Assembly (NCBI RefSeq): GCF_000315625.1
Contig: NW_005434609.1
Location: forward strand, 419,503 to 476,957
Length of the DNA: 57,455 bases
Reading direction: 5' to 3'
Origin: Guillardia theta CCMP2712
Lineage: Eukaryota > Protista > Cryptophyta
Shown here: piece after piece, positions 11,414-57,455 of the stretch
Numbering within the stretch: the first letter of the stretch is position 1
Layout of the letters: each line of letters opens with the position of its first letter
Position numbers and translations under genes: made by a program
The notes under the pieces: model-generated
Told to the model about the DNA's origin: nothing
Databases searched by the model: none
Seen by the model: the letters and a program-made list of their open reading frames with translations, nothing else

Positions 11414-14400
11414 ATGAAGGAGCTGGTTGGATTGAGCCTTAGCCTATACTTATGGCTAGTGTGTCAAGCATGCGCAGTAATCAACACGAATAAACATAGC
11501 AGCGCAAGAAACTTTGTGTCCTCCAAGACACCACAGAGAGCAGCTGGCTACATACGACCTGTTGGCAAACTGTTGATTTCAGGCAACAAGACGGGCGTTG
11601 GGACAAGAGACCTTCTGGAGTTCTTCGGTAGGTTTGGTACAGTGTTGGACGCCTACGTGCTGAACAATCCCTTCTCGCGATCCAAATGGATCGGCTCGGT
11701 GACATTCAAGCACGAGTCAACAGCACATGACATCTCCGACAAGGTCTCAAGGTTTGGAAGCCAGATGGAGATAAAGGGATGCCCGATCATGATCAACCTT
11801 TGGGGAGAGGAGGAGCAGGAGGAGAGGAGAATAGAGCATTCGCTGGCCTCCGACCAGTACAAAGAGCAACGGCAGAAGATGGAGGATGAAGCCGAAGACG
11901 TCGAGTTCAAGTTTCGGAACCGCTGGACAGACCTGCAGTTGGTCAAAGTTGGAGCAATGGATCCAAAACAATTCTGGAGGAGGCACGGGGGGGATGACGA
12001 TGAGAACGAGTCCTGGGAGAGGAGGCTGATATTCAGGCAGACAAATCTCCCAAACTTCCTGCGAGGATCGAACTTCTCGATCGATGCGGTGAAGAACACT
12101 TCCTCTTTGCTCGACATGTATCTGAACCCAGCGATGGGAATGTCCAAAGTGTGCATGAACGGTTGCAACTTGGTTAAAATATGGAGGGAGAGATTGTCGG
12201 CGGCGGCGGCGGCGGCTCATTTCTTCAACCCTTTCAACCCTGAGGTTGTTCGGAGCATGGCGCAAGAGAAGCTGGGAAAAGGAAGGCTGCCGGAGGGGAT
12301 TGAGATCGAACAGAACGAGGGGTTCACCAAGTTTGCTACGGCAGCGAGCGAAAGGAATGAAACGTCGCACCGCAAGACCAGGACCGATCTCCTGCCCATT
12401 CAAATGATGAAGTCCAAGATCTTGAACCTCCTGCGAGGTAACAACATCCTTGTGGTAGTGGGAGAGACCGGATGTGGCAAGAGTACCCAACTGCCCAAGT
12501 ACCTCCTGCGCATCCTTGGAACGGGGAGAGGCCGAATTGCATGCACGCAGCCCCGCAGAGTCGCAACTGTGTCTCTCGCCAAACGAGTCTCGGACGAGCT
12601 ACATCAAGTGATACTCATGAAGTTCAGAGCTCGCTGGCGCTGACGTGCTGATGTAGAGGGTCGGGCAGCTCGTCGGCTACTCCATCAGGTTTGAAGAGGT
12701 CGTCAGCGATTGGACCAGGATCAAGTTCATGACGGATGGGATACTCATCAGGGAGGTCATCGGTGACCCCTGGCTCGAGCAGGAAAGACCGCCCCTTGCT
12801 AGAAGGATAACGTCCCAACTCTTCCATCCCTCCTTTTCATCGATTCATTCGCGATTTCTTGTCTCCTCCTCCTCCTCCTCCTCCTCCTCCTCCTCCTCCT
12901 CCTCCTCCTCCTCTTCCTCCTCCTCCTCCTCCTCTTCCTCCTCCTCCTATCTGATTCATTTTCCTGTCCATGTCTCTTTGCTTGCATCCATCTCCCTGTG
13001 CACCTCGCCTGTGCGGTCTGTGCCTTCGCCTTGAAACTTGTTCTTCTCCCTTGCTGTGCTGTGTTGACTGCGATCACAGTATTCTGCTGTGATCATGGAC
13101 GAGGCGCACGAGCGGAGTATGCATACAGACATCCTCTTTGGTGTCTTGCGCAAGGTTGCGACGAGGAGGAAAGATCTCAAGGTGATTTGTCTTCGTTCTT
13201 TCCCTCTGCACGTAATGCTCTCTGTTGTACTTGCCTTCTACTAGATCATTGTGACTTCTGCCACCATGGACGCTCAAAAATTCTCTTCTTACTTCTGGAA
13301 CGCTCCGATCATCGAGGTGCCGGGGAAAACTTTCCCGGTCGAAATCGACTACACAGCATGTCTGGTGGAGGACTATGTCGAGAGGGTGAGACCAGAGGTA
13401 CTGCGGAGCTGCTGGACGTCTGATGGAGATGGTGCAGGCGATCTCCTCTGTGACCGACATCCATCTAGGAGAGTCGGAGGGGGACATCCTGGTGTTCATG
13501 CCGGGACAGGAGGAGGCAAGTTGTAACGGGGTCAGAGAGTCTTGGCTCACCTCCCCTGCTGGCCGCAGGTTGAGAGCACGAAGTTCTGGCTGGAGAACAG
13601 AATCGACTACCTCAACAGCACCGGAATTGACGTTCCTCCCCTTGAGATCATCCCCGTCTATGGCACCTTGCCAGCTGAGCTGCAGCTGAAGATGTTCAAA
13701 TCAGGTTGCCCGAGGAGAGACGAGGATGTGGGGCTGAAGAGAGTCTGTCAGACCAGGAAGGGAGGAGGAGAGTGATCATAGCAACCAACATCGCAGAAAC
13801 TTCTCTCACTGTCGACGGCATCGTGTTTGTGATTGATTGTGGATACTCCAAGATAAAGTGCTTCGACCCAACCCTGGGTGAGTGATGATGAGCTAGCGAA
13901 AGATTTTGTTGGTAGAAAAGAGGAGGAATCTGACTTGACAGGCCAGGTATCGACGCCCTGCTAGTCGTTCCTGAGAGCAGGGCGAACGCGAAGCAGGTCG
14001 ATCGCAAGTTTCGTCTGCTCATGTGAGGGTCGTGAAGTCACTTGCAGAGAGCTGGAAGAGCAGGGAGGACGAGACCAGGAAAGTGCTTCAGACTGTTCAC
14101 CGAAGAGGTCAGGAGCCGTCAGCCGCGCCAGCTCGCTGACTTGGCCGACGCAGTCGCTGAAGTTGGAGATGCTGGAGGCTCCAGTGCCGGAGATCCTGAG
14201 GAGCAACCTGGGCAACGTAATTCTCCTCCTCAAGTCGATGAACATCGGCAACCTGCTGCAATTTGACCTGATCGACAACCCGCCCAAGGAAAACATCTTG
14301 AATGCCATGTCTCTGCGCCTCCTCTTACATCCCCCTTCCTCTTACCCTCTGCGGTGCCCAGGTATCAACTTTGGATCCTCGGGGCCCTGAACACCGAGGG

Positions 14401-25426: not shown

Positions 25427-27416
25427 GGAGGAGGAGGAGGAGGATGTAGAAGATTCTTTCAATACGAGAGAGTCAGTTTGCACTATTGAGATTAGAAGGT
25501 CGTTTGACAATCAGAGTACCAGAGGAAGATCCAGAAGATGAGCTGCTGGACGAGTCTGACGAGTCTACATCAAGTCAGATTTAGAATGAGAAAAAAACCT
25601 TCCGACCTGAAGATGATTCATCAGATGAAGCTTCCCCTGCAGGAATCAGGAAATCAGGTGAACAAAGCAAGGCATAAAAAATCAATGTACCTTTTCCTAC
25701 TTTTGTATCCTCACTGGCTACCTTCTTGACCGGGGTTTTCGTTGGCGTCTTTGCCGGGGTTTTCGCTGGCGTCTTCGTCGGCGTCTTGCTTCCTGCCTTC
25801 CCTCCGCTGCCTGTCGCCTGTCCCTCCTGCTTGCCCTTGCCTTTCCCTGGTGTCGTCGTGACCTTGGCCGTGCTCGCAGCCTGTTGGGCCTCCTCGGACT
25901 CGTCGGACTCGTCTGAGCTGGACTCGTCGGACTCTTCTTCTTCCTCCTCCTCGGATTTCTCCTCGTCCTCGGACTCCTCCTCCTCCTCGGACTTCTCCTC
26001 CTCCTCCTCGGACTCCTCCTCTTCCTCCTCGGACTCCTCCTTTTTGGTTTCTACGATTCCTGCCGTACCCTTCCCCCCGGGCTTGGACGGGCTTGTCTTG
26101 GAGGGTGTCTTTGCCGGGCTTTTCGTTGGCGTCTTTGCCGGGGTTTTCGCTGGCGTCTTCGTCGGCGTCTTGCTTCCTGCCTTCCCTCCGCTGCCTGTCG
26201 CCTGTCCCTCCTGCTTGCCCTTGCCTTTCCCTGGTGTCGTCGTGACCTTGGCCGTGCTCGCAGCCTGTTGGGCCTCCTCGGACTCGTCGGACTCGTCTGA
26301 GCTGGACTCGTCGGACTCGTCTGAGCTGGACTCGTCGGACTCGTCTGAGCTGGACTCGTCGGACTCTTCTTCTTCCTCCTCCTCGGACTCCTCCTCCTCG
26401 GATTTCTCCTCGTCCTCGGACTCCTCCTCCTCCTCGGACTTCTCCTCCTCCTCCTCGGACTCCTCCTCCTCCTCGGACTCCTCCTTTTTGGTTTCTACGA
26501 TTCCTGCCGTACCCTTCCCCCCGGGCTTGGACGGGCTTGTCTTGGAGGGTGTCTTTGCCGGGGTTTTCGCTGGCGTCTTCGTCGGCGTCTTGCTTCCTGC
26601 CTTCCCTCCGCTGCCTGTCGCCTGTCCCTCCTGCTTGCCCTTGCCTTTCCCTGGTGTCGTCGTGACCTTGGCCGTGCTCGCAGCCTGTTGGGCCTCCTCG
26701 GACTCGTCGGACTCGTCTGAGCTGGACTCGTCGGACTCGTCTGAGCTGGACTCGTCGGAACCAGACTCATTCTCGTCTGACTGGTCGTCTGAGTCACTTG
26801 ATTGTTCGGAGTCTGAAGAATCTGTCTCAGCTTCCGAATCCTCAGTGTTATGGCGAGCATTCTTTCCCTTTTGGGAACTTTTCGAAGATGAGTTCACCGG
26901 ATTGCTCTTGGCTGCTGGTTTGCTGGGTTCCTTTCCATTCACCATGCCAGCAGGCTTCTGCTTACCTTCAGCCTTTGGTTTCGATGCTGATGTTCCTGCA
27001 GAGTTGCTAGGTGGAAGTTGAGGTTTTCCGAGCACGTTGGATTTCTTTCCTGGGGATTTTCCCTTGACAAGCTCTTTCTCGGCACTCTTTTTGCTATCTT
27101 TGCTATCCACACTTTTCAACGACTTCACATCGCCAACCTGCGGCTGTTTCCTCGCGGCTCCTCCTCTCAACGACAGACATCTCCTCCCTCCTCCCACGAG
27201 CGGCAACCATCGCTGAGGCCCATCAGGTGAACCATGCGACGTTTCGTGAAGAAGACCCATCCTCAAAGTCGTGAATGGTGTTGAAGACCGAGGTTTCATG
27301 ACGGCCCCATGCTCGATCCCGTCCATCTCCCTTGCATCTGCGTACAGCATGCTATGCGGCCTCGACAACCCGCTCACCGCGACCAAGACGAGCAATGATG
27401 GCATGGCAGTTGCCAT
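23638..27416 (-). CDS. Nucleolin/Nsr1/gar2-like protein (acidic-Ser and TPxK repeats, three RRMs, short RGG-like tail) with signal peptide and LRGG presequence
   Basis: Alternating SDESSSDE and KTPAKTP blocks. RRMs with VFCGNLAFDIDE, RETGRFKGFG-HVEF and GRRLRVDYA. Ends SPRGGGFRSPGG...ARG*. N-terminus MATAMPSLLVLVAVSGLS...CLSLRGG. Confidence 0.85.
25740..26760 (+). repeat. Coding tandem repeat, about 2.5-3 near-identical 384-420 bp units inside the nucleolin-like exon
   Basis: The unit beginning CTTTGCCGGGGTTTTCGC recurs at about 25749, 26132 and 26552. Confidence 0.95.
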
Positions 27417-27629
27417 TGCGCGAACTGGATGCAGGAGCCTCTTCGTGCTCGGGGCTTCTCTCTCTCCGTCTCCCTCCCTCCCTCCCTCCGCTTCTCTCCG
27501 CGTCGCCCTCTCCCCAAACAACATGCGTCTCAAAGGCGCCATGCCCCGTGCGCTGTTCGCAGAAGACAGCAAATCATTGACCCTTTTCAATTATTCCAGC
27601 ATCGTTTGCTGCCCTCCAGGACTCGGATC

Positions 27630-38750: not shown

Positions 38751-39913
38751 GCAAAACATGAACAACAATCATCTTCTTGGTCGGATATTCACGCAGAAGG
38801 ATGACAAAGGATCTAGAAACATTGCAGAAGTCTTGAGGATCATATTCGCTAACGGCTTTCGCAATAACAAGTTGTACGAATCAATGCTGTATGTTTACGA
38901 AAAATTGTTCCGAGCGAGCAACAACACAAGAGACCAGGGGAGGAAGAGAGGATCGTCCTATCAAAAGTGAGGCTCAGATCATGCGAAGTCGATGTATAAC
39001 GTTGGGGACATGAGATTGAACTTGTATGCGCAAGAGGGGCAGAATGCAGGATGCAGGAGGGCAGGTCGGTCAGTGCAGTCGGTTCTGGGGAGAACCTTTC
39101 TAATCCGTTTTCCGCGAAGAGAATAGGCATGCTCGGATTTTCTAGAATATTTAAATCTACTTGACTATTGTTCAAATATTTATTTACATTTGTTTATAAT
39201 TTTTAAATGTTTTGTGGAAATAAACTTTTCCTAAAGACCCTAGTGAAAAAGCAAACACCCTCTTTAACGGCACAAACCTACTGGGGCCGACAATTTTTAC
39301 TTAACGACACTATGGCGAACATCCGGGTGCAAGTCAAGTTCCGAAGTTCCGGGGGTGGCGGGCCCGCCGAGTTGCCGCAGTGCCGGGAGCCGGGGCCCGG
39401 GAAGCGGCGGTCACGTTGGCGGTGGGCCCTGAGTTACGGTCCCCGGCACCGTACGCCGTGACGGCAAAACTTTCAGCAACGGTGTAAAAATCAGTGACAC
39501 TGTGGACGGTGAAGGCCCGGCGTGGCAGCTGAGCCTGAGTGTGCGGTCACCGGGCGCGGCCGCCAGGCCACGCCGGGCCGCCGCGGCAGCCTGTACTGTG
39601 AGTGACTCTGTGATCTTCTTTACTCAAAGTTAAGTTAAAAATCAGTACGAGGACAATCAGGAGACTTTACTCAAAGTTAAGTTAAAAAGCCGGGGATAGT
39701 GACTCGTGTGAGTAAAGAACACCACTCAGCCGAGTGGCATGCCACGGTGAGTTGTCGGGCAAAAAATTGAATTATTGGACTTTTGTCCAGCTAAAAACCT
39801 TTCCAGGAAGAGATCGGTGATGAGTAAAGGTTAGTACGGTCGAGCCAAGAAATGGACCTAGGCTGTATAATGGTCATACAAGTTGACTAAAGTTGTTGCC
39901 CTCTCACTTCGAC

Positions 39914-45256: not shown

Positions 45257-46356
45257 CCTCGTTGCCTTCGTCAATCTCGCCGTGGTTGCTTTCATCGAAC
45301 ATTTTTGACTGCATCATGCTTTCAAGTCTCCTTTGAGTCTGCCGAATCTCCTCCAGCATCTCTACCGTACCTTCGTGCACTTCAGGAGTTGTTTGTTCGC
45401 AACTTTTAGATGCCATTGCCGGCGTAAAATTCATTGGTTTCCCAGCCTCTGCAGATTCGTTTTGGTTTTCCTTGTAAAAGCGATCTAGGAATCCCTTTTG
45501 GAACATGTCGTTCAAGTGATCTCCACCATATTCCTGCGAGGGTTGAGGTGCAGCCGCTGGCTTGTTCATTTGCACGAGTGTAGAGTTGTGAATAGAGAAG
45601 CCCAAGTCTTCTAGGTGAACACCAACGGTTTCCGAATCCGTGTCATCAGCCAACGCAGGGCCTTCGGCTCGCACAGGGTCTAAACCATCATTAGGAGACA
45701 TCCTCTGCGATGACTTTGCACTCGAGCCCTCTGTCACTTCCATATGCTTGTCTGTACATTTCTCCTGTACCTGTTCACCGGTGTCCTCTGCTTTGGATTG
45801 CTTCAAAAACCATCTTGACAGCCAGAGAGCTGCATTGTCCGGTTTGTACCTTATGATATCCTGCACCTGCATCATATCAAAGGCTCAGTCTCAGTCCCTT
45901 GGAACCTTAAATACATACCGCATGTCGGAACAAAGGAAGCACGTTTGAACGAAGATAAGGTAAGGATTCTACAAACTGCTGGGGGATTTCATTATCTAGA
46001 TCTTCCTTTCCGTTGGGATTTTGCAGGGAAGATATGATGTCTGACATTTCCATGGTCCGATTGAGAAGCATTTGCAGGGCTACATCCTCTCCTGCAATTT
46101 TCTTCTCGTACTCTCCATGTCCCCCGCGCAGGCATAGCGCTTGGGCGCATCCCCTCGTACTTGGACTTGGCTGAGACAAGCTTAGCATGATCAGAGGAGA
46201 TGAACGTGTGGGAGGAGAAGAGAAGAGCGTCTGATCTGTGGGAGGAGAAGAGAAGAGCGTCTGATCTGTGGGAGGAGAAGAGAAGAGCGTCTGATCTGCT
46301 CGTTCCAAGCGAAGGAGGAGCGACATCACCCCTAGAATGCGACCCATAGACAGCAT
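44050..46356 (-). CDS. Protein with Dpy-30/RIIa-like dimerisation motif; signal peptide and LRGG presequence
   Basis: LPYLRSNVLPLFRHA-VQDIIRYKPDNAALWLSRWF. N-terminus MGRILGVMSLLL...ALCLRGG. The 3' end is approximate. Confidence 0.55.
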
Positions 46357-46470
46357 GCTTCCACGAGGCCTCGTGGGAAGACCTGACAAGCCCCCCTCAG
46401 AGGGCCGGTTTCAGCCGGGGCCCGGGCCCCCGGGCAGCAAGCCTGACAGTGAGGCACTGCGGCCGCGTTG

Positions 46471-46965
46471 AAGAAGGGGCAGCGCGTTCTCGCCAGGTAA
46501 GGAGCTTTACTCAAAGTTAAGTTAAAATCAGTACGAGGACAATCAGGAGAGTCGAGGAGAGAACCGGGTAGGAGGCAACCGAAGGCCAAGGTGAGGAGAG
46601 GCAACTCTTCTGACTGAGTACTCGCGCGCCTCTTAAGAGCACTAGGATTGCTTGGTTAGGAGCGCCGGTTTCACGCAGCGCCGGTTATTTCACGAAGCTG
46701 CAAGCAAAGGTTTGGTATAATGATGAAAACGAAGCGTTTTCCTAACAGCAGGACAGCTCAGGCTTGCAAGCCTTGAAGGCTGTAGAGGCCGGGATGCACC
46801 CCGACGCTATCGCAGAAGCCATCCGCTCGACATGTCAGCAGGCGCGACGGGAGCGCATTGTCTGGATGGAGCGATGCATCCAGAGATTGGTTTATGCAGC
46901 AGATGGAGGAAGCTAAGAAGATGAATCGCCTCGGTGTATGTCAACTTCGAAGAGATCGGACTGAT
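46471..46965 (+). repeat. Deletion-riddled mosaic copy of the 50.0-52.6 kb module
   Basis: Blocks match 51931-51954, about 52228-52279, 52598-52611 and, in colinear pieces, 50016-50514. Confidence 0.85.
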
Positions 46966-47562
46966 CCGACTCAGCATATTGGGATTAGGGGCGCTGCAGC
47001 GGAATATGAAAATCCAGGATTGTTGATTAGCGCTTTTCATGACCGGTACTTTTGACTGCACTTATACGGGTACTTGCCCTCGCACAGAAGCACCCTTTTA
47101 CCCCCATTATCATTGAGTAATAGGGGGTGGGGTATTTGAATTGGCATGGGCGGAAACCTTCAAGACCACCCCACTCCCCTCGACACTTTTAACAGACGAC
47201 ATGTTTTAAGGCTGCGAAAACGTTTTAGAAAGATACGAATAATCATAAAATAAATATAAATTGGAAACACAGTAGAAAAGACTTAGAAATACAATACAAA
47301 TGTTCGAATTTTTTTGGTACCTGATTCAATTTCAATGTGTACTGTGTTTCTGGGTTTGGTACAAGAATGAAGCCACCGGGTCCTTTTCTGCTAGTGCTTT
47401 CACAAAACGGGGGTAGGGTAGTCCCCCCTGTCCCCCACCCATCCCTATTTCAGGGATTTGAATTTTTCCCAGAGGCAAGTTGCCACGGCACAAGTTGAGA
47501 CACATGCCAGTGTGATCTTGAAATTTGGCTTAAGATTTTGAACATTGAAACGTTGATTAATC

Positions 47563-49977
47563 ATGTCAGGACCAAATCTATCAAATTCGTCATCCCCACC
47601 TTTGCAAGGAAGTTCCTGCAGACGAAGCAAGCAAACCATTACCCTGGATGATCATCGGAGGAATTGCTCACCTGGGAGTCTCTGGCAAGTCGAGCGGGCT
47701 TCCTCTATAAACAAGGAAAATGGCAGGGACAACCTAATGTCAATGCTTGCCTGAAGGCCATAGGTTTGAAAAGAGATCATTTGTAAAATGCAAATCTTTG
47801 TAACACCTGGGATGCAGGTAGATCTCCTGAGTTGTTGCTTCGAATCTTACAAGAGTCTGAGGAGCAGAGAGGTTTTAGTCATCATGTGGATGAAGCCAAA
47901 CGCGAAGGGATTATTTCCCCTCACTCCGATGAACCAATTCCGGCTTGTTACGATGCTATCAAAGATCCAAAAGTGAAAACAGCGATTCTGAAGAAGATCC
48001 AGGGTGACACTGATGAGGCCCCCTTCTAGATGTGGTCACGAAGAAGGTAGATCGGCACTTTGCGTCACACAAGGCCAATTGTCGAGTGAAATGGGGACAT
48101 TTTGCTGATCTATTTCACCACAAGTGTGAGGATGACTCTGGACAGGAAGCGGCCGAGGGGCCTCGAAAGCAGAAGAAGTGCAAAACTTCGAAATACGATA
48201 GCCTTACGTTCTTTGAAGGCATTCTGAGCAGTCAAGCCTTCAAGACAGTCATAAAAAATGAACTTGCCACGAATAAGGAGCTTCAAAACTGCCTGAAACC
48301 TGCGGTCAGGCAAATGATGCCGAGCGCGCGAGAGGCAGCAGTTGCCCTGACAGCAAACGGTATAACGAAATCGCAGTACCAAGGATTCTGTCGTGCAAAC
48401 GATAGCATGGCTGGCTGCTTTATTCCCATGCCAAAAATATCACGGGTTACTACTTCGGAGTGGAAGAGAAGCATGCGTTGTGCCAAAGATTCAAACTGTT
48501 CTGTTTGCCAGATGGAACACATTGCCTCGGCCTTCTTCAACTTGTCGAAGAGTGGATTGATATCTTCAAACTTCACGGGAAGCATCGCCTTGTTATCACG
48601 ATCAACTATGACTGTGCAACAATGACATTCTCGGCTGGCAATCCTAAGAAGGCAACTGAAGTCACCATTTCCATTTTCCCTTACGGCGTAGACTGTTCGA
48701 GGAAAGAATGGAAATTCTGGCAAAAACTCGTTAGAAGTTCATCGTGCCTTATGACGATGTCCTACATTCCATATGGAGACAGTCCTGAGGTTTTTCAGAG
48801 GACTGTGAGAGCTGGATATGATGAAGTTATTGATCTCTTGAAGGAGAAAGGTATTCACATCTACAACAATCAAGCAGTCGGGGGACTTGAAAAGACATTA
48901 GCAGGTGGTCAGCCTGACAAGATTATCCAAGTGGAGTTCGTCAAGAGATCTGATTTGCAAGGGCAATGGAATATGTACGGCATTGGTGGAATGACCGACA
49001 AGGAGGGCAAGTTCTGTCTCCACTGTAACGAACTCCTCAAAGATCACAAGGCTGGGAAATATTTCGAAATCGAAACAATCGTTTCCAACGAAACTCTGTC
49101 CCAAGTTTGTGAAAGACTGGACATGTCTACGGAGGGCATCAAGTTGTTAAACAGAATGTTGAAAAGTCCCGATGCTTTCGAACGAATGTTCGACACCTCG
49201 GAAGGAGAATTCCAAGAGTTATTAGCTGAAGAAAATCAGACTCGACTCCAAAATTATCTGCAAGACCCAGAGTTGATCATGGAGATGGGAACAAAGATCC
49301 CAGTGATTCGTTTGATCGAAATGGACAGATGCAGCGGCGAAGCAGCTTGTTGCTCGTTTCATGCTTTCATAAGAACGACGAACATGATTATTGGATGCCT
49401 TCAAGAGAAAGCGGCGCAGATGAGAAAGGTCGCGACAGTCAATTTTCAATTACAAGAGCAAGGAGTGAATGTCCAATTCACCGAGAAGTCTCATAGCAGG
49501 AAGCTGAACGGTGAACAATGCGACAGATTCGTCAAAAAGGCATCAGTCGTCATCAATACCCTTTACAGCGATCCTGCCTATGCAGATGACAGAGAACGAT
49601 GGATAGGCGTAATGGAAGAATGGGACCTCTTAAGCACCATGCTGAAGTGTCAAGAACTTGACAAACTTGAAAACCTGGATTTTCAAATCGGTTTAACCCT
49701 TCCTGTGAGGCTACGAACGCTTATGCTGAATATTATCGACCTGGTTGGAGATCCTAGTTTGATGCAGTCATTCTACTTCCACTCGCTCCTTGTTGGGCAC
49801 ATTGGCCAACAATTCTACGACCGTTTGGTACAATATGGGATCCCTCTTGGATTACTGAACATCAGTAACGTCGAAAATCGCCACAGACATTTTGGAAGAC
49901 CTTCGTATTTGCAAGTCCAACCAGAGGTAAATGCATTCGTCTCAAAAAAAAAAAACGTCGAAGGGTTTAGGGTTTAG
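47563..49977 (+). mobile_element. RAG1/Transib-like DDE transposase; N-terminal part frameshifted (possible pseudogene)
   Basis: AVALTANGITKSQYQGF (RAG1 LAIRVNTFLSCSQYHKM); ITINYD, D at 48610 (~D600); VKRSD, D at 48952 (~D708); FCLHC; FHAFIR; KLNGEQCDRF (RAG1 RMNGNFARKL); FYFHSLLVGH; LGLLNISNVEN, E at 49873 (~E962). Confidence 0.8.
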
Positions 49978-49982
49978 GGTTT
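49944..49982 (+). repeat. A12 tract followed by (AGGGTTT)3 telomere-type repeat
   Basis: AAAAAAAAAAAA-CGTCGA-AGGGTTTAGGGTTTAGGGTTT; this tract supplies the TAG that ends the transposase ORF. Confidence 0.9.
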
Positions 49983-52203
49983 GCCAGGTGTAGGGGAAGC
50001 CGCCAGGGCGCCAAGGAAGCTGCAAGCGAGAGGTTTGTATACTTCAAATAGCTTTCTAAGTATGGTTCTTCAGTATGATGAAAATGTTCGCAACCTGCTG
50101 TATCGGAGATCATGCCAATACACGCAGAGCGGACTTGTGGATGCCTCTGTCCTCGAAGCTGATCTCGTCGAGAGGGTGAAGAGCTTCGCGAAGCGTTATC
50201 CTAACAGCAGGACAGCCCAGGCTTGCAAGGCTGTGGAGGGATGCACCCCCGACGCTATCGCAGAAGCCATCCGCTCGACATGTCAGCAGGCACGACGTAA
50301 GCTTCTACAAGAAGCAATGACTGGATGGAGTGACGCATCCAGAGAGTGGTTTATGCAGCAGATTGAAGAAGCCAAGAAGGAGAAGGTCGAGACATACACC
50401 GCCTCAGCAGGCAACGAGGTGACTTCCTTCATCTCCATGACTCTCCTGGGCATCTCCTCGGTGTATGTCAACCATGAAGAGAAGCTGAAGAAGAAATTCG
50501 AAGAGATCGGACTGGTCGTAGACTCAGTGCAAGAGAGTAAAGCAATCATGTGGAAGGCTCCGTATAGACCCGAGATAGCGAGTGCTGGAGAGATCCCGGT
50601 GACTGTTTCCTTCCTCCGCAATGCACAAGCGGAGAAGCTCTGGCAGGGAAGAGAGGACTTCGCGATCGATGGTCGCAAGTTCACAGCTGTACATGTGAGC
50701 ATCGTGCACGATCGATCTTTCAAGATTCGAGCCAAGAGAGGACCCTGGGGCAAAGGGGGCAGCTTGGCAGAGCTGACCCACCTGCTAACCTTGGGCGGCA
50801 TGACAACGGCTGAGATAGCTGCCGTCTATCGCTATCAGCTGCTGCGCCAGTCCCTTGCAGCGGTCCAACTCCAGCCGCTGGCAGGCATGCTGGTCGCTGG
50901 GGCGCCAGGACAGCAAGTCCACAAAGGCTTAGGTCAGAAAGGCTTCGTCGCTGTAGGGGCCAACGTCATCTGGAGACAGAGGGAGGTGGAGTGGATCGTC
51001 TCCTCGAGCTACCCAGAGGCGAATGATACAGCATTTCGAGCTTTCCGAGAGAGCGAAGCGATGGAGGGAGTACACCTGACTCTGTTCAGCGAGGACCCGA
51101 AGATCAGAGAGGCGCTCGCAGTCGAGTTGACAGCTGATCGCTTTGTGTCCAGAAATAAGTTGAAGAAGGCATCAAGGATGCAGAAGAAGGCAGGCGGCAA
51201 GGACGGCAAGGAGATCAAGATCATCATCAAGTCGACGGCGGCATCTGGTCGCTTCACGAGGAAGGAGATGGAGGGGCTGTGCAACGGCGGCAACACGTCC
51301 ATCGCAAGAGTCAAGAGAGTCTTGTTGGAGATCGCTAACAGGCTCGAGATCAAAGTTGAAGGCATCGACATGGAGGAGGATTTGAACACCAAGTCCTGGA
51401 ACGGGTCCAAGCTATGCATCCTCCTCGGCTCCACGGAGGATGCTCGACGCATGATGAAGGAGCAGCCCTTCTATCTCGAAGGCGCAGCAACCAAGCTCGA
51501 AGCAGTCGGCTTCGACAAGGAGCCTGAGGCGGCTGGTCAGCGGGGCACCAGCGACGCAGCGCAGCGACAGGAGGAGAGCGAGGGAGAGTGGCTGGAGTTT
51601 ACAGACCTGGAGAGGATCACAATGGAGGCAGCATCTCCGTCAAGCCAAGAGGACATGCAGCTTGTCAGCGAGCTGTCAGCAGTCATCGAAGATGCAGCTT
51701 CTTTGAACGAGGCGGGGACGAGCGAGCCAATCAAGCTGGTCCTGGACAAGGCCGTTGGCAACCTCCACGACACCTTCTACTCTCCGGGGAGCCTGGAGTT
51801 CATGTCGCTGGGAGAGTGGGCGAAGACGCCAGAGGAGCAGGGAGTGGGACGCAACGTTCTCAAGGAGAAGCTGGGGGAGTGGCTGCAGAGCAAGCGCTGG
51901 ACTCGCGTGCAAGGAGAGAGCAAGAAGGCAAGGAGGGGCAGCGCGTTCTCGCCACGGGCAACGGCAGCTGCTGAGCTTGAGCAGGAGGCGGAGAGCGACG
52001 ACATAGAGCGTCGATCTCTTAGCTTCCTGTTCATAGCACTGAGTAAATTCGCAGAGATGCATGTGCTGGCCTGCTCGCTGAAGGTGGACAAGAAGGACCG
52101 ACTGCGGGTGGAGATGAGGGAAGATGACGAAGAAGAGGAAGACATGGAGGAAGAGCAAGGCGAGGGCGAGGAAGAAGACGGGGCGAGCCCGTACCGAGCT
52201 TGA
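49981..52203 (+). CDS. Intronless 740-aa ORF, same frame as the transposase; RRM-like segments and acidic tail (possible gag/ORF1-like protein)
   Basis: Long intron-free ORF in an intron-rich genome, with no ATG for the first ~27 codons. Beta-alpha-beta-beta-alpha-beta-like patterns (MTLLGIS...EKLKKKFEEIG...VTVSF...AEKL...AIDGRKF; KLCILLGSTEDARRM...FYLEG). A partial second copy lies at 46.7 kb. Confidence 0.6.
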   Translation: MPGVGEAARAPRKLQARGLYTSNSFLSMVLQYDENVRNLLYRRSCQYTQSGLVDASVLEADLVERVKSFAKRYPNSRTAQACKAVEGCTPDAIAEAIRSTCQQARRKLLQEAMTGWSDASREWFMQQIEEAKKEKVETYTASAGNEVTSFISMTLLGISSVYVNHEEKLKKKFEEIGLVVDSVQESKAIMWKAPYRPEIASAGEIPVTVSFLRNAQAEKLWQGREDFAIDGRKFTAVHVSIVHDRSFKIRAKRGPWGKGGSLAELTHLLTLGGMTTAEIAAVYRYQLLRQSLAAVQLQPLAGMLVAGAPGQQVHKGLGQKGFVAVGANVIWRQREVEWIVSSSYPEANDTAFRAFRESEAMEGVHLTLFSEDPKIREALAVELTADRFVSRNKLKKASRMQKKAGGKDGKEIKIIIKSTAASGRFTRKEMEGLCNGGNTSIARVKRVLLEIANRLEIKVEGIDMEEDLNTKSWNGSKLCILLGSTEDARRMMKEQPFYLEGAATKLEAVGFDKEPEAAGQRGTSDAAQRQEESEGEWLEFTDLERITMEAASPSSQEDMQLVSELSAVIEDAASLNEAGTSEPIKLVLDKAVGNLHDTFYSPGSLEFMSLGEWAKTPEEQGVGRNVLKEKLGEWLQSKRWTRVQGESKKARRGSAFSPRATAAAELEQEAESDDIERRSLSFLFIALSKFAEMHVLACSLKVDKKDRLRVEMREDDEEEEDMEEEQGEGEEEDGASPYRA

Positions 52204-52227
52204 GCTGAGCTCAAGGTAAGGAGAGAA

Positions 52228-52518
52228 GGTAGGAGGCGACCGAAGGCCAAGGTGAGGAGAGGCAACTCTCCTGACTGAGGCTGAGGAAGCTGAATGGAGG
52301 AGGAGTAGGTGGCGACCGAAGGCCAAGGTGAGGAAAGGCAACCCTCCTGACTGAGGCTGAGGAAGCTGAATGGAGGACGAGTAGGTGGCGACCGAAGGCC
52401 AAGGTGAGGAGAGGCAACTCTTCTGACTGAGGCTGAGGAAGCTGAATGGAGGTAGAGTAGGTGGTGACCGAAGGCCAAGGTGAGGAGAGGCAACTCTCCT
52501 GACTGAGGCTGAGGAAGC
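52228..52518 (+). repeat. 76-bp tandem repeat x~3.8
   Basis: YGACCGAAGGCCAAGGTGAGG recurs at 52237, 52313, 52389 and 52465. Confidence 0.95.
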
Positions 52519-52609
52519 CAAGAGAAGACAGCAGAAGTAGAGAGTAGAAAGACGCCTCAGAAGCAGGGTTCGCATTATAGGCCGTGTACTCCCAATGCTC
52601 GCGCGCCTC

Positions 52610-52671
52610 TTTAGGGTTTAGGGTTTAGGGTTTAGGGTTTAGGGTTTAGGGTTTAGGGTTTAGGGTTTTAG
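52610..52671 (+). repeat. Interstitial telomeric repeat (TTTAGGG)8 + TTTTAG
   Basis: Eight perfect Arabidopsis-type units directly visible. Confidence 0.97.
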
Positions 52672-52932
52672 ACTAACTTGCCAACTTCCTCTCGGCATGC
52701 TGGTGGCAGCGCCCGCAGCACTTCGTTCGAAATGAGGTCAAGTCCTGCAGCCTTTCGTCTCGGCGCCGAGGCGAGCCAGACATCAATCTCTCCCGGTGCC
52801 AGGGGTCTGGTGATTTCCTGTTGTTGTCTCCTTGAAAGCTGCACCCCCTCAGGCGGTGTGATCCGTCTTGGGGCCACGGTTGTGAACGACTTACATTTTG
52901 TGCAGTACGGGGTAATCCCTCCCCCTCCGATG

Positions 52933-55900
52933 GTTGGTAAGTTAGTCAATGCAGCCCTAGAAGGCAAAGCTGAGGTTCTCAACAAGACAGCGAGAGTACG
53001 CCTCCTGCCAAAAAATCAATTCTGTCACATTCTCGAAAACATGCGGCCAATATGCGTCATGTCAACGCTTACTCGACTAGTTCAGGCAATCCTGGCGCAT
53101 CGTCTGAGTAAGACAGTAGAAGCAAATAACGTCCTCACAAACTTCCAGGAGGGGTTCCGTCCAGGCAGAAGCACAAGTCGGCAGGCTCATCGACTGATCT
53201 CGATCGTAGAAGAAGCAGAAGAGGCCAAAACGTCCCTCATTCTCTTGTACCTGGACTTTGCGAACTTCTTTAACAATGTGGCGATCGAGGTGGTCGAGCA
53301 GGCAATGAACAGCCTAGGCTTCCATCCTGAAGACATTAGAACTGTGATAGCCTGCAACAGTGGAGTCGAACTGCAAATACAAACAAACGAGTTCAACACA
53401 GGGAAAATACCTCTAATGATCGGGCTGCCACAAGGTGGAGCAAGTAGCCCACAACTGGCCAACTTGGTGCTATGCATCCTCTCTAGGCAATTGGACAAGT
53501 GCAGCACAGGAACAACAAACAACCTGTCCTTCGCCGATGACATGGTACTCATCGCACACACGATGAAAGAAATGCGAGAGTTGGTAGCAGTGGTGGATTC
53601 CTTCTGCAAATGGTCAGGACTGCAAATCAACAATAAGAAATCAGAGATAACCAGCTTCGACTATGCTCGCAAGGGAGAGGTTCCTGGTGCGAACAAAATA
53701 ACGGTCATGGGGGAACCTGTCGAAGCCCTACCGGCTACTAAACCGTTCAAATATCTCGGCTATCGCATCTCTCTGTGGAAGGAAGAAAGACGAAGAATAA
53801 AGGGCTGCCCTTTCACTTGGGGAGAACGAGCATACGTCTTTGAAAAAACCAAAGAACTGATCAACAATATCAGCTCGTCGAGTTATACTCCTGCGCAAAA
53901 ATTTTACCTGGTGAAAGTTGGAATTCTCAACGTCTTTCGCTACTCCGCAGTCATGACTGGATGGACTTGGCGAGACCTACAAGAATTAGATCAACTGTGG
54001 ATACGAGCTTTTAAAAAAGCGTTAGGCCTAAGCAAAAGTACAGGGAATGGTATATTCTACCTGCCAACAGAGAATGGAGGGCTGCAGGTCCCTCATCCTG
54101 CCCCAATCCTAGGGAGAGCAGCGTTACGATACATCGAACGAGAAGTGAATAGTAAGCATGGTGGAGACATCCAAGATAGACTGATATCTAAACTCAGAAA
54201 CTCGTGCGTAAAATGGGGGTGTCAAACAATGCTCGAGCTCCAAAGAGAAATGAATTTTCGAACTATGGAGCGGGATGTGGTGCGGGGACCCGAAGCTTTA
54301 GCAGTCTGGCTGACGGAAAAACTAAACACGAGGATCAGCTGGGCCCATATAGAAGCAGGTCACCTACCTGGAAGCATCTCCCTCCTTCATAGGATGGAGG
54401 ATATGGTGGCAAACTTGAACGACTGTAACAGACCACAAGGCTGGACGACCTTCCAAGCCTTATGGAGGCAACTCCCGAAACTCCAATTCTCCTTGCTACG
54501 CAATGTACGACCTATCGCGGACGAAGAACTGCATTTGCCAAGGAAGCTCTGGCCTTTCCCAAGGCAACGCGAGGAGGCGGAGGGGATCGTAATGCAATTG
54601 CTACAAGAAAATGTCATCTGGGTAAGCAGCGTCAACAGAGCATCGGGAACAAAGAGGAAAAGACGAGAGGTTGTCACACAGGATAGTGCTACAACCCGAA
54701 AACGAAAGTCACACCCGCAATCAGAGGAGGACCGGGAGGAGACATCCAAAAAGCATCGGGAAGCAGCAGAAGAGAGAAGGCCACACCCAGCTCATGCAAA
54801 CACAAGATCCCTCATGGCTAAATTACTAGGCAATCTGGATCAACAGGAACACCTTATCCTAAAAGGTAAGGAAAGTTTCAAAATCAAGGGCGACATAGCA
54901 ATCATGGACCGGCCCAGAAGTCACACGGGCCAAGAACAAGACATCAAAGAAGCCGAACCTTCCCTTCGCTCGGCGCCATTTGCGAGGAAAGAAGATGAAG
55001 ATGGCGCCAAGAACCCAGAGAAGACAGAGATCCTACTGCAAATTGCTAAGCATATCAGCAAAAAACACAACAGCTTACTCAACTCGCAAGCTTGGTGGGA
55101 ACATCTAACCACCGCCATGGCTGAAATTCGAGATAGACAACAAGGCCTTCCGCTGTCGTACGAATTTCTAGAACACTTGGGGATGCTCGCTGAAACAAAA
55201 CAGTTCAGCAACTGGCCCACCCTCTATCACCCGACAATCCAGGCCGCAACAGACAGCTTGCAGGACGACGAGGTTCGACGTGAAATAATATGGATCGACC
55301 AACAGGAGCAATACCTCAGCCACGCCGCATGCGAGTCCGGAACAATCATGATCGGATGGAACCAAACTTGCTTCAGGAAAGAAATCCCTGACGGCTTCAT
55401 GCTAGTCGGTAAGGTACCTAAAGGATCAGAAATATGTTACGCTGCAAATTTCTGGAGGACGGGCGATCGGAGCCTCAGGAAGTCACAAGACGACCTGATT
55501 GTCTACTGCAAAGAGTCGGAACAAGAGAGAATAATTGTCCAACTCACAGTACACCTGATCCCTGAACGGGAGGAGCTACAAGAATACCGAAGGAAGCAAA
55601 ACGAAAACTATCAAGCCTCGGCCAAACAGGAGAAGAACAGGAACCACGTGTGGTCCGCAATCCACGGCGACATATCACGAAACAGGAAGGGTCGATCAAT
55701 GTCGATAGGATACAGCACGCAAGAAAAGGAAGGAGAGCAGGAACGCGGAGCGATCAAGATACACGGAAAATGTAGCGTCATCAGAGCACATACCATCGCA
55801 CTCTGCATACTCCTACAAGCGATTTGGGAACAAAGAGGCAAACAGAAAACAATCAGGAAAATCTTCGTCCTCTTTAAATCAACCCGAATGCATCGCTTTC

Positions 55901-57018
55901 TTACGGACACCCTCAGATGGTCTACCATGCAGTATGAAGACGAGCTCGTATACGACTTGGCAGGAAGACTGCAGGAATGCCTGAGCAAATTTCAGCGGGA
56001 AGGCATTGAGATCAACCTCTCTCTGATCGCAGACCACACCGTAGTGCAAGAAGCTGCAGAGGAAGCTCGCAAGGGAAAATCCTCCTTCTCCTCCACGTGG
56101 GAAAGGGCCCTCATCGACAGCGACTTGGGATTCTGCATTGCAGACGAAGAGAACTTCAAGCCGGGGATGGATCGACTGAAAATATGGGATAAGATAATCA
56201 GAGAAGAACAACTGGAACTGAGGAGGAAAGAAGCCCCCCTTACCTTGACGGAAACCTTTCTCCTGGAACCACAAGTGGGCAGAAGGATCCTAGGTCGAGC
56301 CTTACAGAGGTGTCGAGGATCAGTACTTCGGACAGCCATCCAAGCTATTACCTGGTCAGCACCTACGAGGAAAAAGCTGTTCCAGTGGAAGAAGACGACA
56401 TCCCCCTGTTGCCCATGGTGCGAAGGCAGGGAAGAAAGCTGGGTGCATATCCAGCTAGCCTGCAAAGAATTTGAGCTCATGATCGCTTTGGCACACAACA
56501 GAGTAATGGAGACAATCAAGGGATGCCTGACAGAAAGCTGGAAGAAGAAAAGTGTTGAACAGGAGAGTTGGTGGCAAACGCCAATCAACTCTATGACAGG
56601 GCTAGGACTGACTGCACCAGAGCACGGCAATCTTATACCAGATGGGCTCTGCTACTTCAGAGGGAGCAATCGCATTGTGCTGGTGGAGATAGCAAGAACT
56701 TCAGAGTTCACGGGCGAGGGAAGCAGTCTGGCAAACCTGAAAGCAAAGTTTCAGGAGAAAGAACAGAAATATGCAGCACTGCGGGCAGAGATGACAAGTA
56801 GGAGCGACAACACAGAGGTCATACAAGCCACGTTCATTGCAGGAGTGAGAGGCAGTATTATGGAGCGGGAATGGACCACAAATTTCCGGAACTTGCTCAT
56901 GGACGAGGATATGATTGACAGAGCCATGACCAAGATAGTCATCCAGCTGCTCGAAGTGCAACACATGCTGTGGACCTCAAGGAGACGAGGAGACACGACC
57001 AACAGAGAACAAGCATGA
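52933..57018 (+). CDS. Reverse transcriptase - unknown domain - degenerate RNase H - CCHC - RLE polyprotein (true sense portion of ORF 52678-57018)
   Basis: NMRPICVMS, QEGFRPGRS, LYLDFANFFNNV, GLPQGGASSP, LSFADD, GLQINNKKS, FKYLG, LPTENGGL; CPWC..EESWVHIQLAC; AHNRV; IPDGL..VLVEIAR; EKEQKY. Confidence 0.93.
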   Translation, partial: VGKLVNAALEGKAEVLNKTARVRLLPKNQFCHILENMRPICVMSTLTRLVQAILAHRLSKTVEANNVLTNFQEGFRPGRSTSRQAHRLISIVEEAEEAKTSLILLYLDFANFFNNVAIEVVEQAMNSLGFHPEDIRTVIACNSGVELQIQTNEFNTGKIPLMIGLPQGGASSPQLANLVLCILSRQLDKCSTGTTNNLSFADDMVLIAHTMKEMRELVAVVDSFCKWSGLQINNKKSEITSFDYARKGEVPGANKITVMGEPVEALPATKPFKYLGYRISLWKEERRRIKGCPFTWGERAYVFEKTKELINNISSSSYTPAQKFYLVKVGILNVFRYSAVMTGWTWRDLQELDQLWIRAFKKALGLSKSTGNGIFYLPTENGGLQVPHPAPILGRAALRYIEREVNSKHGGDIQDRLISKLRNSCVKWGCQTMLELQREMNFRTMERDVVRGPEALAVWLTEKLNTRISWAHIEAGHLPGSISLLHRMEDMVANLNDCNRPQGWTTFQALWRQLPKLQFSLLRNVRPIADEELHLPRKLWPFPRQREEAEGIVMQLLQENVIWVSSVNRASGTKRKRREVVTQDSATTRKRKSHPQSEEDREETSKKHREAAEERRPHPAHANTRSLMAKLLGNLDQQEHLILKGKESFKIKGDIAIMDRPRSHTGQEQDIKEAEPSLRSAPFARKEDEDGAKNPEKTEILLQIAKHISKKHNSLLNSQAWWEHLTTAMAEIRDRQQGLPLSYEFLEHLGMLAETKQFSNWPTLYHPTIQAATDSLQDDEVRREIIWIDQQEQYLSHAACESGTIMIGWNQTCFRKEIPDGFMLVGKVPKGSEICYAANFWRTGDRSLRKSQDDLIVYCKESEQERIIVQLTVHLIPEREELQEYRRKQNENYQASAKQEKNRNHVWSAIHGDISRNRKGRSMSIGYSTQEKEGEQERGAIKIHGKCSVIRAHTIALCILLQAIWEQRGKQKTIRKIFVLFKSTRMHRFLTDTLRWSTMQYEDELVYDLAGRLQECLSKFQREGIEINLSLIADHTVVQEAAEEARKGKSSFSSTWERALIDSDLGFCIADEENFKPGMDRLKIWDKIIREEQLELRRKEAPLTLTETFLLEPQVGRRILGRALQRCRGSVLRTAIQAITWSAPTRKKLFQWKKTTSPCCPWCEGREESWVHIQLACKEFELMIALAHNRVMETIKGCLTESWKKKSVEQESWWQTPINSMTGLGLTAPEHGNLIPDGLCYFRGSNRIVLVEIARTSEFTGEGSSLANLKAKFQEKEQKYAALRAEMTSRSDNTEVIQATFIAGVRGSIMEREWTTNFRNLLMDEDMIDRAMTKIVIQLLEVQHMLWTSRRRGDTTNREQA

Positions 57019-57049
57019 AGGATATAAGATGGTTGGAAGATGAAGGGGT

Positions 57050-57305
57050 AAATATCAACGAGGACAGATCACAAGGGAAGCCTCAAAAGCTAGCAACCAG
57101 GATCAGCATGGCTGGGAAGGGGCAAGGACACAGAAGACAGATGAAGACGAAAGGGCAACGGTCAACGGACAGACCGAAGGTAAAGCCTCATAGGCGAAAA
57201 ACAACCAACATGGCAAGGAAGGGGCAAGGACACAGGAGACAGATGGATGACGACAGGGGAAAGGTCAACAAGGACAGACTGACGGGGAAGCTTCACAGGC
57301 GGCAG
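57050..57305 (+). repeat. Degenerate ~102-bp direct repeats in the retroelement 3' UTR
   Basis: CATGGC..GGAAGGGGCAAGGACACAG.AGACAGATG at 57107 and 57209, with a partial earlier copy. Confidence 0.8.
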
Positions 57306-57455
57306 GCGGGGAAGGGACATGGACTTAGCGCAAAAACTGGACAGGTGGGACGGTTACACTGAAACCGTCAACCCGGGCCCGGAGGAGACACGGCCGCACC
57401 GGCGGCTCGGAACTGAGGACTATGGAAACAACAGAAACAGCGAAACAACGATAGA

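What the first reader, a model, noticed from the sequence alone, without database searches (positions are those of the whole stretch)
46471..57455. Telomere-repeat-punctuated array joining a RAG1-like transposase, an RRM-like ORF and an RLE retrotransposon
Seen: host genes stop at 46.4 kb and three long, largely intron-free, co-oriented modules follow. The order is [RAG1-like]-A12-(AGGGTTT)3-[740-aa ORF + 76-bp repeats]-(TTTAGGG)8-[RT-RNH-RLE], with both telomeric tracts on the same strand. Inference: a subtelomeric mobile system in which a telomere-targeting RT deposits its own and passenger RNAs into TTTAGGG, or a composite element coupling a DDE recombinase to chromosome ends. I know of no described system with this combination, but I cannot search.
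Basis: partly seen in the sequence, partly recalled or inferred. Interest (0 to 1): 0.85.

Follow-up and report, generated by a model that had tools for sequence, protein, structure and literature searches.

The report
Telomere-repeat retrotransposon array in cryptophyte alga
This likely chromosome end of the alga Guillardia theta is a pile-up of three separate mobile pieces rather than one composite element: a dead RAG1-like transposase cut off by telomere repeats, a many-copy gene unit, and a partly inverted retrotransposon that likely inserts into telomere repeats, an arrangement known from silkworms and fungi.

Summary
The layout is real, but it is not one element. The window is Guillardia theta, probably a scaffold end. 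(1) The RAG1-like gene folds like RAG1 (Z 17.9). Here it is frameshifted and cut about 45 codons short where TTTAGGG repeats begin. A paralogous locus reads on with A7 and no repeats, so A12 is a slipped lysine-codon run, not a poly(A) tail. (2) The 713-aa ORF belongs to a family of at least 60 gene models; 10 of 12 testable copies on large scaffolds sit at scaffold ends. One RRM fold is weakly supported. (3) The RT-zinc knuckle-RLE copy is 5'-truncated and its first 264 bp are inverted directly after (TTTAGGG)8. All 4 runs laid hold the un-inverted form. One contig shows telomere repeat joined at the element's only 7-nt telomere-complementary site. Two guessed-RNA runs show 13 introns antisense to the RT, as in Drosophila TART/HeT-A. 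Best reading: a telomere-repeat-targeting non-LTR family with SART-like polarity and a likely ORF1-only partner, built up on a telomere-healed break in a dead transposon. The telomeric junctions were not checked against reads.

The parts
46471..46974 (+). Decayed relic of the ORF unit: pieces of its 3' part ending CTCGCGCGCCTCTT, then pieces of its 5' part (two units head to tail, heavily deleted)
   Evidence: blastn pieces 81-96% identical to 51930-52614 and 50016-50527
46978..49963 (+). Fragment of a multi-copy RAG1-like (Transib/RAGL superfamily) element: about 585 bp of 5' non-coding DNA plus a broken transposase gene from ATG 47563, cut about 45 codons before its normal end
   Evidence: 93% identical over 2998 columns to L001; 83-91% aa identity to intact 838-aa P0005 in four frame pieces; P0005 model matches RAG1
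49944..49955 (+). A12: expanded lysine-codon run (A7 in paralog L001), not a poly(A) tail
   Evidence: P0053 reads AFVSKKRRREGEHEP here
49962..49982 (+). (AGGGTTT)3 telomere-type tract starting at the transposase break; its first AG is shared with the transposase sequence
   Evidence: absent from L001
49983..52609 (+). ORF unit, 2.6 kb, flanked by TTTAGGG on both sides, no poly(A): ORF 50062-52203 (713 aa) plus 3' region
   Evidence: 40 hits, 37 of them G. theta models; 23 further accessions; scaffold-terminal
51205..51519 (+). Predicted RRM-like domain (model residues 382-487); a second beta-alpha-beta-beta-alpha-beta region at about residues 121-216
   Evidence: model mean pLDDT 45; best Z 9.0, rmsd 2.5, 79 aligned, 49 or so of the 50 rows RRM-type; no Foldseek match at E<=0.001
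52220..52518 (+). 76-bp tandem repeat, 3.9 copies, 93% matches, in the unit's 3' non-coding part
52610..52668 (+). (TTTAGGG)8.4 tract between the ORF unit and the RT copy
52671..52934 (-). Inverted 5' piece of the RT element (region before RT domain 1, including the EIDVWL...KAAGLDLI motif); 9-nt overlap (AAGTTAGTC) with the sense part and 5/6 microhomology at the inner junction
   Evidence: opposite-strand joint in 4 of 4 runs and natural upstream loose end behind 52934 in 3 of 4
52935..57018 (+). Body of a non-LTR retrotransposon ORF, open to its stop: RT core 53008-53769 (FADD at 53530), degenerate RNase-H-like stretch 55642-56085 (unverified), CCHC knuckle from 56410, RLE-type PD..EIAR 56638-56697 and KEQKY 56758
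   Evidence: (best PDB hits R2, E 1e-21; L1 6e-13)
53738..53744 (+). CTAAACC, the only 7-nt piece of the C-strand telomere repeat in 4080 nt of RT sense strand; one X6 contig joins telomere repeat and foreign DNA exactly here
   Evidence: (table 7)
52856..56638 (.). 13 GT-AG introns (41-341 nt), all on the strand antisense to the RT; spliced product has no long ORF
   Evidence: 13 skip rows shown (6 more joints hidden): in guessed-RNA runs X6 and/or X16, 11 in both, 0 in X5 and X3; longest frame 146 aa with the 12 introns of the sense part removed
57019..57455 (+). 3' untranslated part with about 102-bp repeats; the element runs past the window end, so its 3' terminus is not seen
   Evidence: an X3 contig continues 99 nt beyond 57455 (table 8)

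Best explanation
This likely chromosome end of Guillardia theta holds three separately derived mobile pieces joined by TTTAGGG tracts: a dead RAG1-like transposase cut where the repeats begin, a many-copy gene unit with a predicted RNA-binding fold, and a 5'-inverted copy of a non-LTR retrotransposon that likely targets telomere repeats. Proposed order of events: (1) A RAG1-like transposon lay next to, or had inserted into, an older array of the ORF unit; the relic at 46471-46974 abuts it (adjacency shown, insertion inferred). (2) The chromosome broke inside the transposase gene, and telomerase added TTTAGGG from a 2-nt AG seed (break and added repeats shown by L001; telomerase inferred). (3) An ORF unit entered the new tract three repeats from the break (position shown; route inferred, most likely retrotransposition in trans as a HeT-A/MoTeR2-like non-autonomous partner). 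(4) The RT element inserted eight repeats beyond it. Its RLE would nick the C-rich strand to prime cDNA from the RNA 3' end, and the freed G-rich strand would prime a second cDNA inside the RNA (twin priming), leaving the inversion (inversion shown; enzymology inferred). Sense runs along the G-rich strand towards the end, the polarity of SART and the opposite of MoTeR. Multiply spliced non-coding antisense RNA covers the RT and likely serves or reflects silencing.
For: Organism and copies. Break: L001 reads through with A7 and no repeats; P0005 and P0053 have the C-terminus. Dead copy. Scaffold-end position from accession order: the window's transposase model EKX40756 is within 9 models of the next scaffold's block; 10 of 12 non-anchor ORF-unit models on scaffolds over 350 kb lie in the outer ~5%, p about 5e-6 against uniform; model-free pairs 105802/105803 and 114138/114144 straddle scaffold boundaries. 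Head-to-tail arrays: models P0031, P0082 and P0097 run from one copy into the start of the next, and the relic has the same order. Inversion: un-inverted joint in 4 of 4 runs from 4 studies; adjacent breakpoints with 9-nt overlap. G-strand priming: X6 contig joined at the single CTAAACC site of 4080 nt. TTTAGGG is the inferred cryptomonad telomere type (PMC3622300, passage). Precedent for arrays spaced by short telomere tracts, a non-autonomous partner and 1-7 nt healing seeds: PMC7367193 (passages). Polarity: PMC7265360 (passages). Antisense introns without ORF: PMC1636488 (passages), PMC2615633 (abstract).
Against: No 3' junction of the RT element was seen, so target specificity rests on two 5' junctions, one of them a single contig of a guessed-RNA run. 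The window's own primer junction shows no microhomology beyond 1 nt. Three X5 loose ends near 57003-57177 run into non-telomeric sequence. The ORF unit has no poly(A), no recognised target duplication, and no similarity to the visible part of the RT 3' UTR, so retro-mobilisation of it is not shown. Scaffold ends also collect repeats for assembly reasons, and the position test assumes that accession numbers follow coordinates. 2 of the 12 tested copies are internal (0.74, 0.78). The second RAG1-like/ORF-unit adjacency (rough chance about 0.02) is not explained by pure accident. Reads across the two telomeric junctions were not examined.
Confidence: 0.62

Rival explanations
1. The ORF unit is a Y'/Sultan-type subtelomeric repeat spread by recombination or break-induced replication, and only the RT element is a retrotransposon, inserting into the interstitial telomere tracts between units.
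For: No poly(A) and no shared 3' sequence with the visible RT UTR; full-length units in tandem. Sultan elements carry telomere-like borders and spread by segmental duplication (PMC8287924, abstract and passages).
Against: Intronless 713-aa ORF with predicted RRM fold, typical of LINE ORF1 proteins (recalled); two subfamilies and a Hanusia homolog; same polarity as the RT; P0014 joins a second copy that starts mid-ORF, as a 5'-truncated insertion would (may be a gene-model artefact).
Confidence: 0.3
2. The RT element is not telomere-specific. Short TTTAGGG tracts are filler added by telomerase at double-strand breaks, including those made by retrotransposition, and the cluster is a gene-poor sink for elements.
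For: The first tract is new relative to L001; telomerase filler at breaks is described in mammals (PMC2246262, passages); the X6 junction has only about 2 repeats before foreign DNA.
Against: Strong scaffold-end bias of the ORF unit; both tracts on the strand expected for a right-hand chromosome end; no other tandem TTTAGGG in 46 kb of host DNA.
Confidence: 0.2
3. One reading: the RAG1-like transposase, the ORF unit and the RT work as one system, with the recombinase making or targeting breaks at chromosome ends.
For: Second adjacency EKX43360/EKX43361; the window's transposase is flanked by ORF-unit sequence on both sides.
Against: The window copy is dead and truncated; L001 lacks the other modules downstream; two other RAG1-like models map to about 0.73 and 0.82 of their scaffolds; the RT copy is an independent inverted insertion.
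Confidence: 0.08
4. One or both telomeric junctions are misassemblies at a contig end.
For: Repetitive modules at a record end; the junctions were not checked against reads; the window-specific inversion is not among the listed joints.
Against: The inversion has adjacent breakpoints with a 9-nt overlap, too short to drive an assembler join (inference); the relic repeats the same unit order; a similar telomere-to-antisense-RT junction occurs in an independent run.
Confidence: 0.07

Closest known systems
MoTeR1/MoTeR2 (Magnaporthe) and FoTeR (Fusarium)
   Same: RLE-type non-LTR elements in telomere repeats; head-to-tail arrays spaced by 0.5 to over 20 repeats; a non-autonomous partner; breaks healed from 1-7 nt seeds; internal relics (PMC7367193 passages; PMC12857005 abstract).
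   Different: MoTeR 5' ends face the chromosome end, whereas sense here runs towards it. MoTeR2 shares termini with MoTeR1 and has no clear ORF; the partner here encodes a 713-aa predicted RRM protein, and shared termini are untested.
SART1 / TRAS1 (Bombyx mori)
   Same: Insertion inside telomere repeats, with SART inserted in the G-rich top strand; short RNA-telomere pairing can set the priming site (PMC7265360 passages).
   Different: SART and TRAS are R1-clade elements with an APE endonuclease, both ORFs in one element and a poly(A) tail (APE and ORF layout recalled). This element has a C-terminal RLE, and the ORF1-like gene is a separate unit.
HeT-A / TART (Drosophila)
   Same: Terminal head-to-tail arrays; multiply spliced non-coding antisense RNA with mostly 50-100 nt introns (PMC1636488 passages; PMC2615633 abstract); an ORF1-only partner (HeT-A; recalled).
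   Different: Jockey clade, added to chromosome ends in a telomerase-free host, opposite polarity (recalled), no telomere-repeat spacers.
Dualen/RandI and other RLE clades (CRE including Zepp and GilM/GilT, R2, R4, NeSL, Hero)
   Same: RT followed by zinc knuckle and RLE. Dualen/RandI is the RLE group listed with an RNase H; oomycete Utopia has its RNase H upstream of RT (PMC4640811 passages). Zepp and Gil are telomere-associated CRE elements (PMC10088271 passages).
   Different: Clade not determined. The N-terminal part (APE in Dualen) is lost in this copy, and the RNase H is unverified and lacks catalytic residues.
RAG1 / ProtoRAG (BbRAGL) / Transib; AanRAGL of Aureococcus
   Same: Fold (RAG1 Z 17.9, rmsd 4.2, 429 aligned; BbRAGL Z 17.1; HzTransib Z 11.5); DDE triad and zinc ligands conserved across distant relatives.
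   Different: 10-13% identity; no Pfam or PDB sequence hit; no RAG2-like gene and no terminal inverted repeats found in L001 or the window. Guillardia is not named in the main text of PMC9435367; its supplement, which lists RAG1L fragments in other protists, was not seen.

Membership tests
RLE-type non-LTR retrotransposon | non-LTR RT domain | tested here: met
   PF00078 E 1.7e-35; best PDB sequence hits R2 then L1
RLE-type non-LTR retrotransposon | C-terminal CCHC knuckle and PD-(D/E) restriction-like endonuclease | tested here: met
   CPWC..HIQLAC, PDG..LVEIAR, KEQKY, conserved in 44%-identical P0011; zf-RVT E 0.004, below cut-off; motif definition recalled, no fold run
RLE-type non-LTR retrotransposon | multi-copy, with 5' truncation or inversion | tested here: met
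   un-inverted form in 4 of 4 runs, variant letters and a second junction
Telomere-repeat-specific non-LTR element (MoTeR/SART type) | telomere repeat at the 5' junction | tested here: met
   2 of 2 RT junctions seen: the window and one X6 contig
Telomere-repeat-specific non-LTR element (MoTeR/SART type) | telomere repeat at the 3' junction | not testable with these tools
   3' end lies beyond the window; no genome held; no metagenome locus found
Telomere-repeat-specific non-LTR element (MoTeR/SART type) | copies confined to chromosome ends | tested here: inconclusive
   shown indirectly for the ORF unit (10 of 12) and for this window; not testable for other RT copies
MoTeR family proper | 5' end towards the chromosome end | tested here: not met
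   sense lies on the G-rich strand here
Dualen/RandI | RNase H between RT and RLE | tested here: inconclusive
   no Pfam or PDB RNase H hit; hhalign to E. coli RNase HI probability 0.1, E 0.48, though in the expected register
Dualen/RandI | APE endonuclease upstream of RT | not testable with these tools
   5' part absent from this copy; only 30 nt of the natural upstream sequence shown
HeT-A/MoTeR2-like non-autonomous partner (ORF unit) | 3' terminus shared with the autonomous element | tested here: inconclusive
   no match to the visible 437 nt of RT 3' UTR; true 3' end not seen
HeT-A/MoTeR2-like non-autonomous partner (ORF unit) | nucleic-acid-binding ORF1-type protein without RT | tested here: inconclusive
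   RRM Z 9.0 on a low-confidence model; no Pfam hit; no usable Atlas hit
RAG1/Transib superfamily transposase | RAG1-type RNase H fold with zinc-binding insertion and DDE triad | tested here: met
   D344 15 of 15, D458 16 of 16, E765 13 of 15, C479 16 of 16, C482 18 of 18, H734 15 of 17, H740 15 of 15 rows with a residue (RAG1 numbering equivalents recalled)
RAG1/Transib superfamily transposon | terminal inverted repeats and 5-bp target duplication | tested here: inconclusive
   none within L001 or L002, which may not hold whole elements
RAGL transposon proper | linked RAG2-like gene | tested here: inconclusive
   no long ORF upstream in the window; only about 1 kb downstream seen in L001
Retroposed passenger (processed RNA copy of the transposase) | poly(A) tail at the transcript's 3' end | tested here: not met
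   the A-run is internal coding sequence and the gene breaks before its stop

The most novel reading that the evidence does not exclude
Cryptophytes carry a split telomeric retrotransposon system: an RLE-RT element plus a separate ORF1-only RRM unit, convergent with Drosophila HeT-A/TART down to spliced antisense RNA but working alongside telomerase with SART polarity. RAG1-like transposons prefer these arrays, and their breaks seed new telomeres that the pair then colonises, so a RAG1 relative drives chromosome-end turnover.
Probability: 0.12. Interest if true: 0.82.

Novelty: new variant of a known kind. Interest (0 to 1): 0.52.

Why it matters
It would add cryptophytes to the short list of lineages with telomere-repeat retrotransposons (insects, fungi, green algae, Giardia, rotifers, a lizard), in a combination I did not find described: RLE endonuclease, SART polarity, a separate protein-coding ORF1-like partner and TART-like antisense introns. 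The inversion junctions suggest that the telomeric G strand itself acts as second primer, which makes second-strand priming in RLE elements testable from sequence. At least 60 'hypothetical proteins' of G. theta become one subtelomeric mobile family. The RAG1-fold transposases, invisible to Pfam, extend the RAG1/Transib superfamily to cryptophytes and bear on RAG origins. Five literature searches naming Guillardia returned no description; Repbase and subscription journals were not searchable.

Tried and rejected
Intron reading of the A12/(AGGGTTT)3 stretch, splicing the transposase onto the 713-aa ORF: rejected, because homologs continue directly through this point. Protein-coding antisense gene over the RT: rejected, longest frame 146 aa with all 12 introns removed and 237 aa for the best subset, against 219 aa unspliced. 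Relic as a spliced retrocopy: 0 of 7 deletions have GT-AG or CT-AC ends. Relic spacer as decayed telomere repeat plus unit start: shuffle p 0.06, not used. Terminal inverted repeats in L001/L002: none found. Structured RNA in 46000-57455: 0 Rfam matches at E<=1. Pfam and PDB sequence searches for the transposase and ORF: nothing. RT loci in metagenome contigs: 0 of 52 candidates. ORF unit and transposase in viral contigs: 0 of 57 and 0 of 62. RNase-H-like stretch against plasmids: only 2 chance-level hits. Protein Atlas: no usable hit for P0016; not answered for other queries. No listed run is on record as RNA; X6 and X16 are guesses, supported by their GT-AG skips. Summed contig depth against the lowest-depth rows would suggest about 20-30 RT copies, but the tool warns that depth is no copy number, so this is not used. 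Earlier findings: five look-ups, nothing returned. The original twin-priming, Dualen and Giardia papers were not held; what I say of them is recalled. No complex prediction was run.
Full report
Source and observation. The 523-aa frame at 48406-49977 is 99% identical to Guillardia theta model GUITHDRAFT_142617 on a 476,957-bp scaffold. The two TTTAGGG tracts are the only tandem telomere repeats in the window (8 matches, 0.01 expected). TTTAGGG is given as the likely ancestral cryptomonad telomere type (PMC3622300, passage).

Module 1, the transposase. An intact 838-aa relative (P0005) was folded with a 28-row alignment (mean pLDDT 75). It matches RAG1 (Foldseek E 1e-9; Z 17.9, rmsd 4.2, 429 aligned), BbRAGL (Z 17.1), P element (12.4) and HzTransib (11.5), well above unrelated rows. 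The DDE and zinc residues are conserved in distant relatives. The RAG1-like call is therefore right, although Pfam and PDB sequence searches see nothing. The window copy is dead: it aligns to P0005 in four frame pieces and ends at about residue 794. Paralogous locus L001 is 93% identical from 46978 to 49963 and then carries on into the C-terminus, with A7 where the window has A12 and no telomere repeat (L001 is itself interrupted). The A-run is thus slipped coding sequence, and the repeats were added at a break, sharing only AG with the gene. Four G. theta models in two subfamilies are on record. No terminal inverted repeats or RAG2-like gene were found.

Module 2, the ORF unit. The ORF is 713 aa from ATG 50062. 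It has 40 hits, 37 of them G. theta models, plus a 37% Hanusia phi homolog; cluster look-ups add 23 accessions. Several models run from one copy into the next, which implies head-to-tail arrays. A deleted relic at 46471-46974 shows the same 3' end followed by 5' pieces. I estimated scaffold position from the two numbering systems of the annotation, assuming that numbers follow coordinates. Of 31 rows, I used 8 as anchors and left out scaffolds under 350 kb, the RAG1-like rows, one duplicate end and models without a looked-up accession. Of the 12 remaining, 10 fall in the outer ~5% of their scaffold (p about 5e-6) and 2 are internal. Two pairs need no model: 105802/105803 and 114138/114144 lie on different scaffolds, 1 and 6 numbers apart. 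The window's transposase model is within 9 models of the next scaffold block, so the window is probably the scaffold's right end, with the G-rich strand pointing outward. The structure model is poor (pLDDT 45), but residues 382-487 match RRMs (Z 9.0, rmsd 2.5, 79 aligned), with a second RRM-like region near 121-216. This is weak support for an ORF1-type RNA-binding protein.

Module 3, the retrotransposon. RT is clear, closest to R2 among solved structures. The zinc knuckle and RLE motifs are conserved in a 44%-identical relative. The RNase-H-like stretch lacks the expected catalytic residues and could not be confirmed. Contigs of all 4 runs laid, from 4 studies, join the two pieces in the natural orientation, and 3 show the natural upstream sequence, which is not in the window. 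The breakpoints are adjacent in the RNA with a 9-nt overlap and 5/6 microhomology at the inner joint, the pattern I recall for twin priming (mechanism named in PMC8219666, passage; original paper not held). The primer for the inverted piece would be the G-rich end of (TTTAGGG)8. A second case supports this: one X6 contig leaves the RT at 53744 into C-strand telomere repeat and then foreign DNA, exactly at the only 7-nt telomere-complementary site in 4080 nt. This is a single contig. The element's 3' end lies outside the window.

Antisense splicing. Runs X6 and X16 (RNA by guess) show 13 skips of 41-341 nt with GT-AG ends, all antisense to the RT, including the one inside the inverted piece; X5 and X3 show none; 6 further joints were not displayed. 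The spliced product has no long ORF. The RT antisense strand is pyrimidine-rich and offers twice as many possible short introns as the sense strand (127 against 63), so opportunistic splicing is a sufficient cause. The parallel with TART and HeT-A antisense RNA is still close.

Synthesis. The simplest history is accretion at a chromosome end: a RAG1-like element beside an old ORF-unit array, a break in it healed with telomere repeats, then an ORF unit and an RT copy entering the new tract. I put separate origin of the three pieces at about 0.85, telomere-repeat targeting by the RT at about 0.7, and mobilisation of the ORF unit by that RT at about 0.45. It works like MoTeR arrays with the polarity of SART, but is a member of neither family. 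With about 60 such models among roughly 24,000 genes, that has a chance near 0.02 for three other RAG1-like models (rough calculation, orientation unknown). Shared preference for subtelomeric, repeat-rich DNA would also explain it.

Limits. Reads across the two telomeric junctions were not examined, so misassembly is argued against only indirectly. Clade placement of the RT and of the transposase was not tested by tree. Five searches naming Guillardia found no description of these elements; Repbase, subscription papers and the supplement of PMC9435367 were not seen and may hold them.

Verdict. A real and apparently undescribed telomere-repeat-associated retrotransposon array in a cryptophyte, a new variant of a known kind; the RAG1-like gene is most likely a broken bystander. 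Interest 0.52.

Noticed in passing
window 39618-39687 and 46500-46550: A 47-bp motif occurs once inside the relic and 1.6 times at 39.6 kb, each time after a GC-rich stretch; not part of the ORF unit; possibly a small repeat element.
   Followed up: no
P0024: A protein labelled Heterocapsa arctica is 98% identical to the G. theta ORF unit; likely contamination or mislabelling of that transcriptome.
   Followed up: no
P0059, P0061, P0076 and others: Distant unnamed RAG1-like proteins of 816-931 aa (about 20% identity) keep the DDE and zinc residues; a wider family of unknown hosts.
   Followed up: partly
GUITHDRAFT_110778 (EKX43360) and 153336 (EKX43361), 592,829-bp scaffold: An intact RAG1-like model of the second subfamily is numbered directly beside an ORF-unit model.
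   Followed up: partly
window 56333, 57003-57177 (loose ends): Other RT copies diverge or end here: a 5' loose end at 56333 in both X5 and X3, and variant 3' regions after the stop, suggesting truncated copies and subfamilies with different 3' UTRs.
   Followed up: no
window 25584-27590 (-): Host ORF of 669 aa with a 420-bp internal repeat and alternating acidic and Lys/Pro/Thr-rich blocks.
   Followed up: no
window 11390-12640 (+): Host ORF with an RRM-like start followed by a DEAH-box helicase Walker A motif (GETGCGKST) (motif names recalled).
   Followed up: no
window 52605-52614 and 46628-46640: The unit's 3' end reads CCTCTT-TAGGG before the telomere tract but CCTCTT-AAGAG (a 10-bp palindrome around TTAA) in the relic.
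   Followed up: partly
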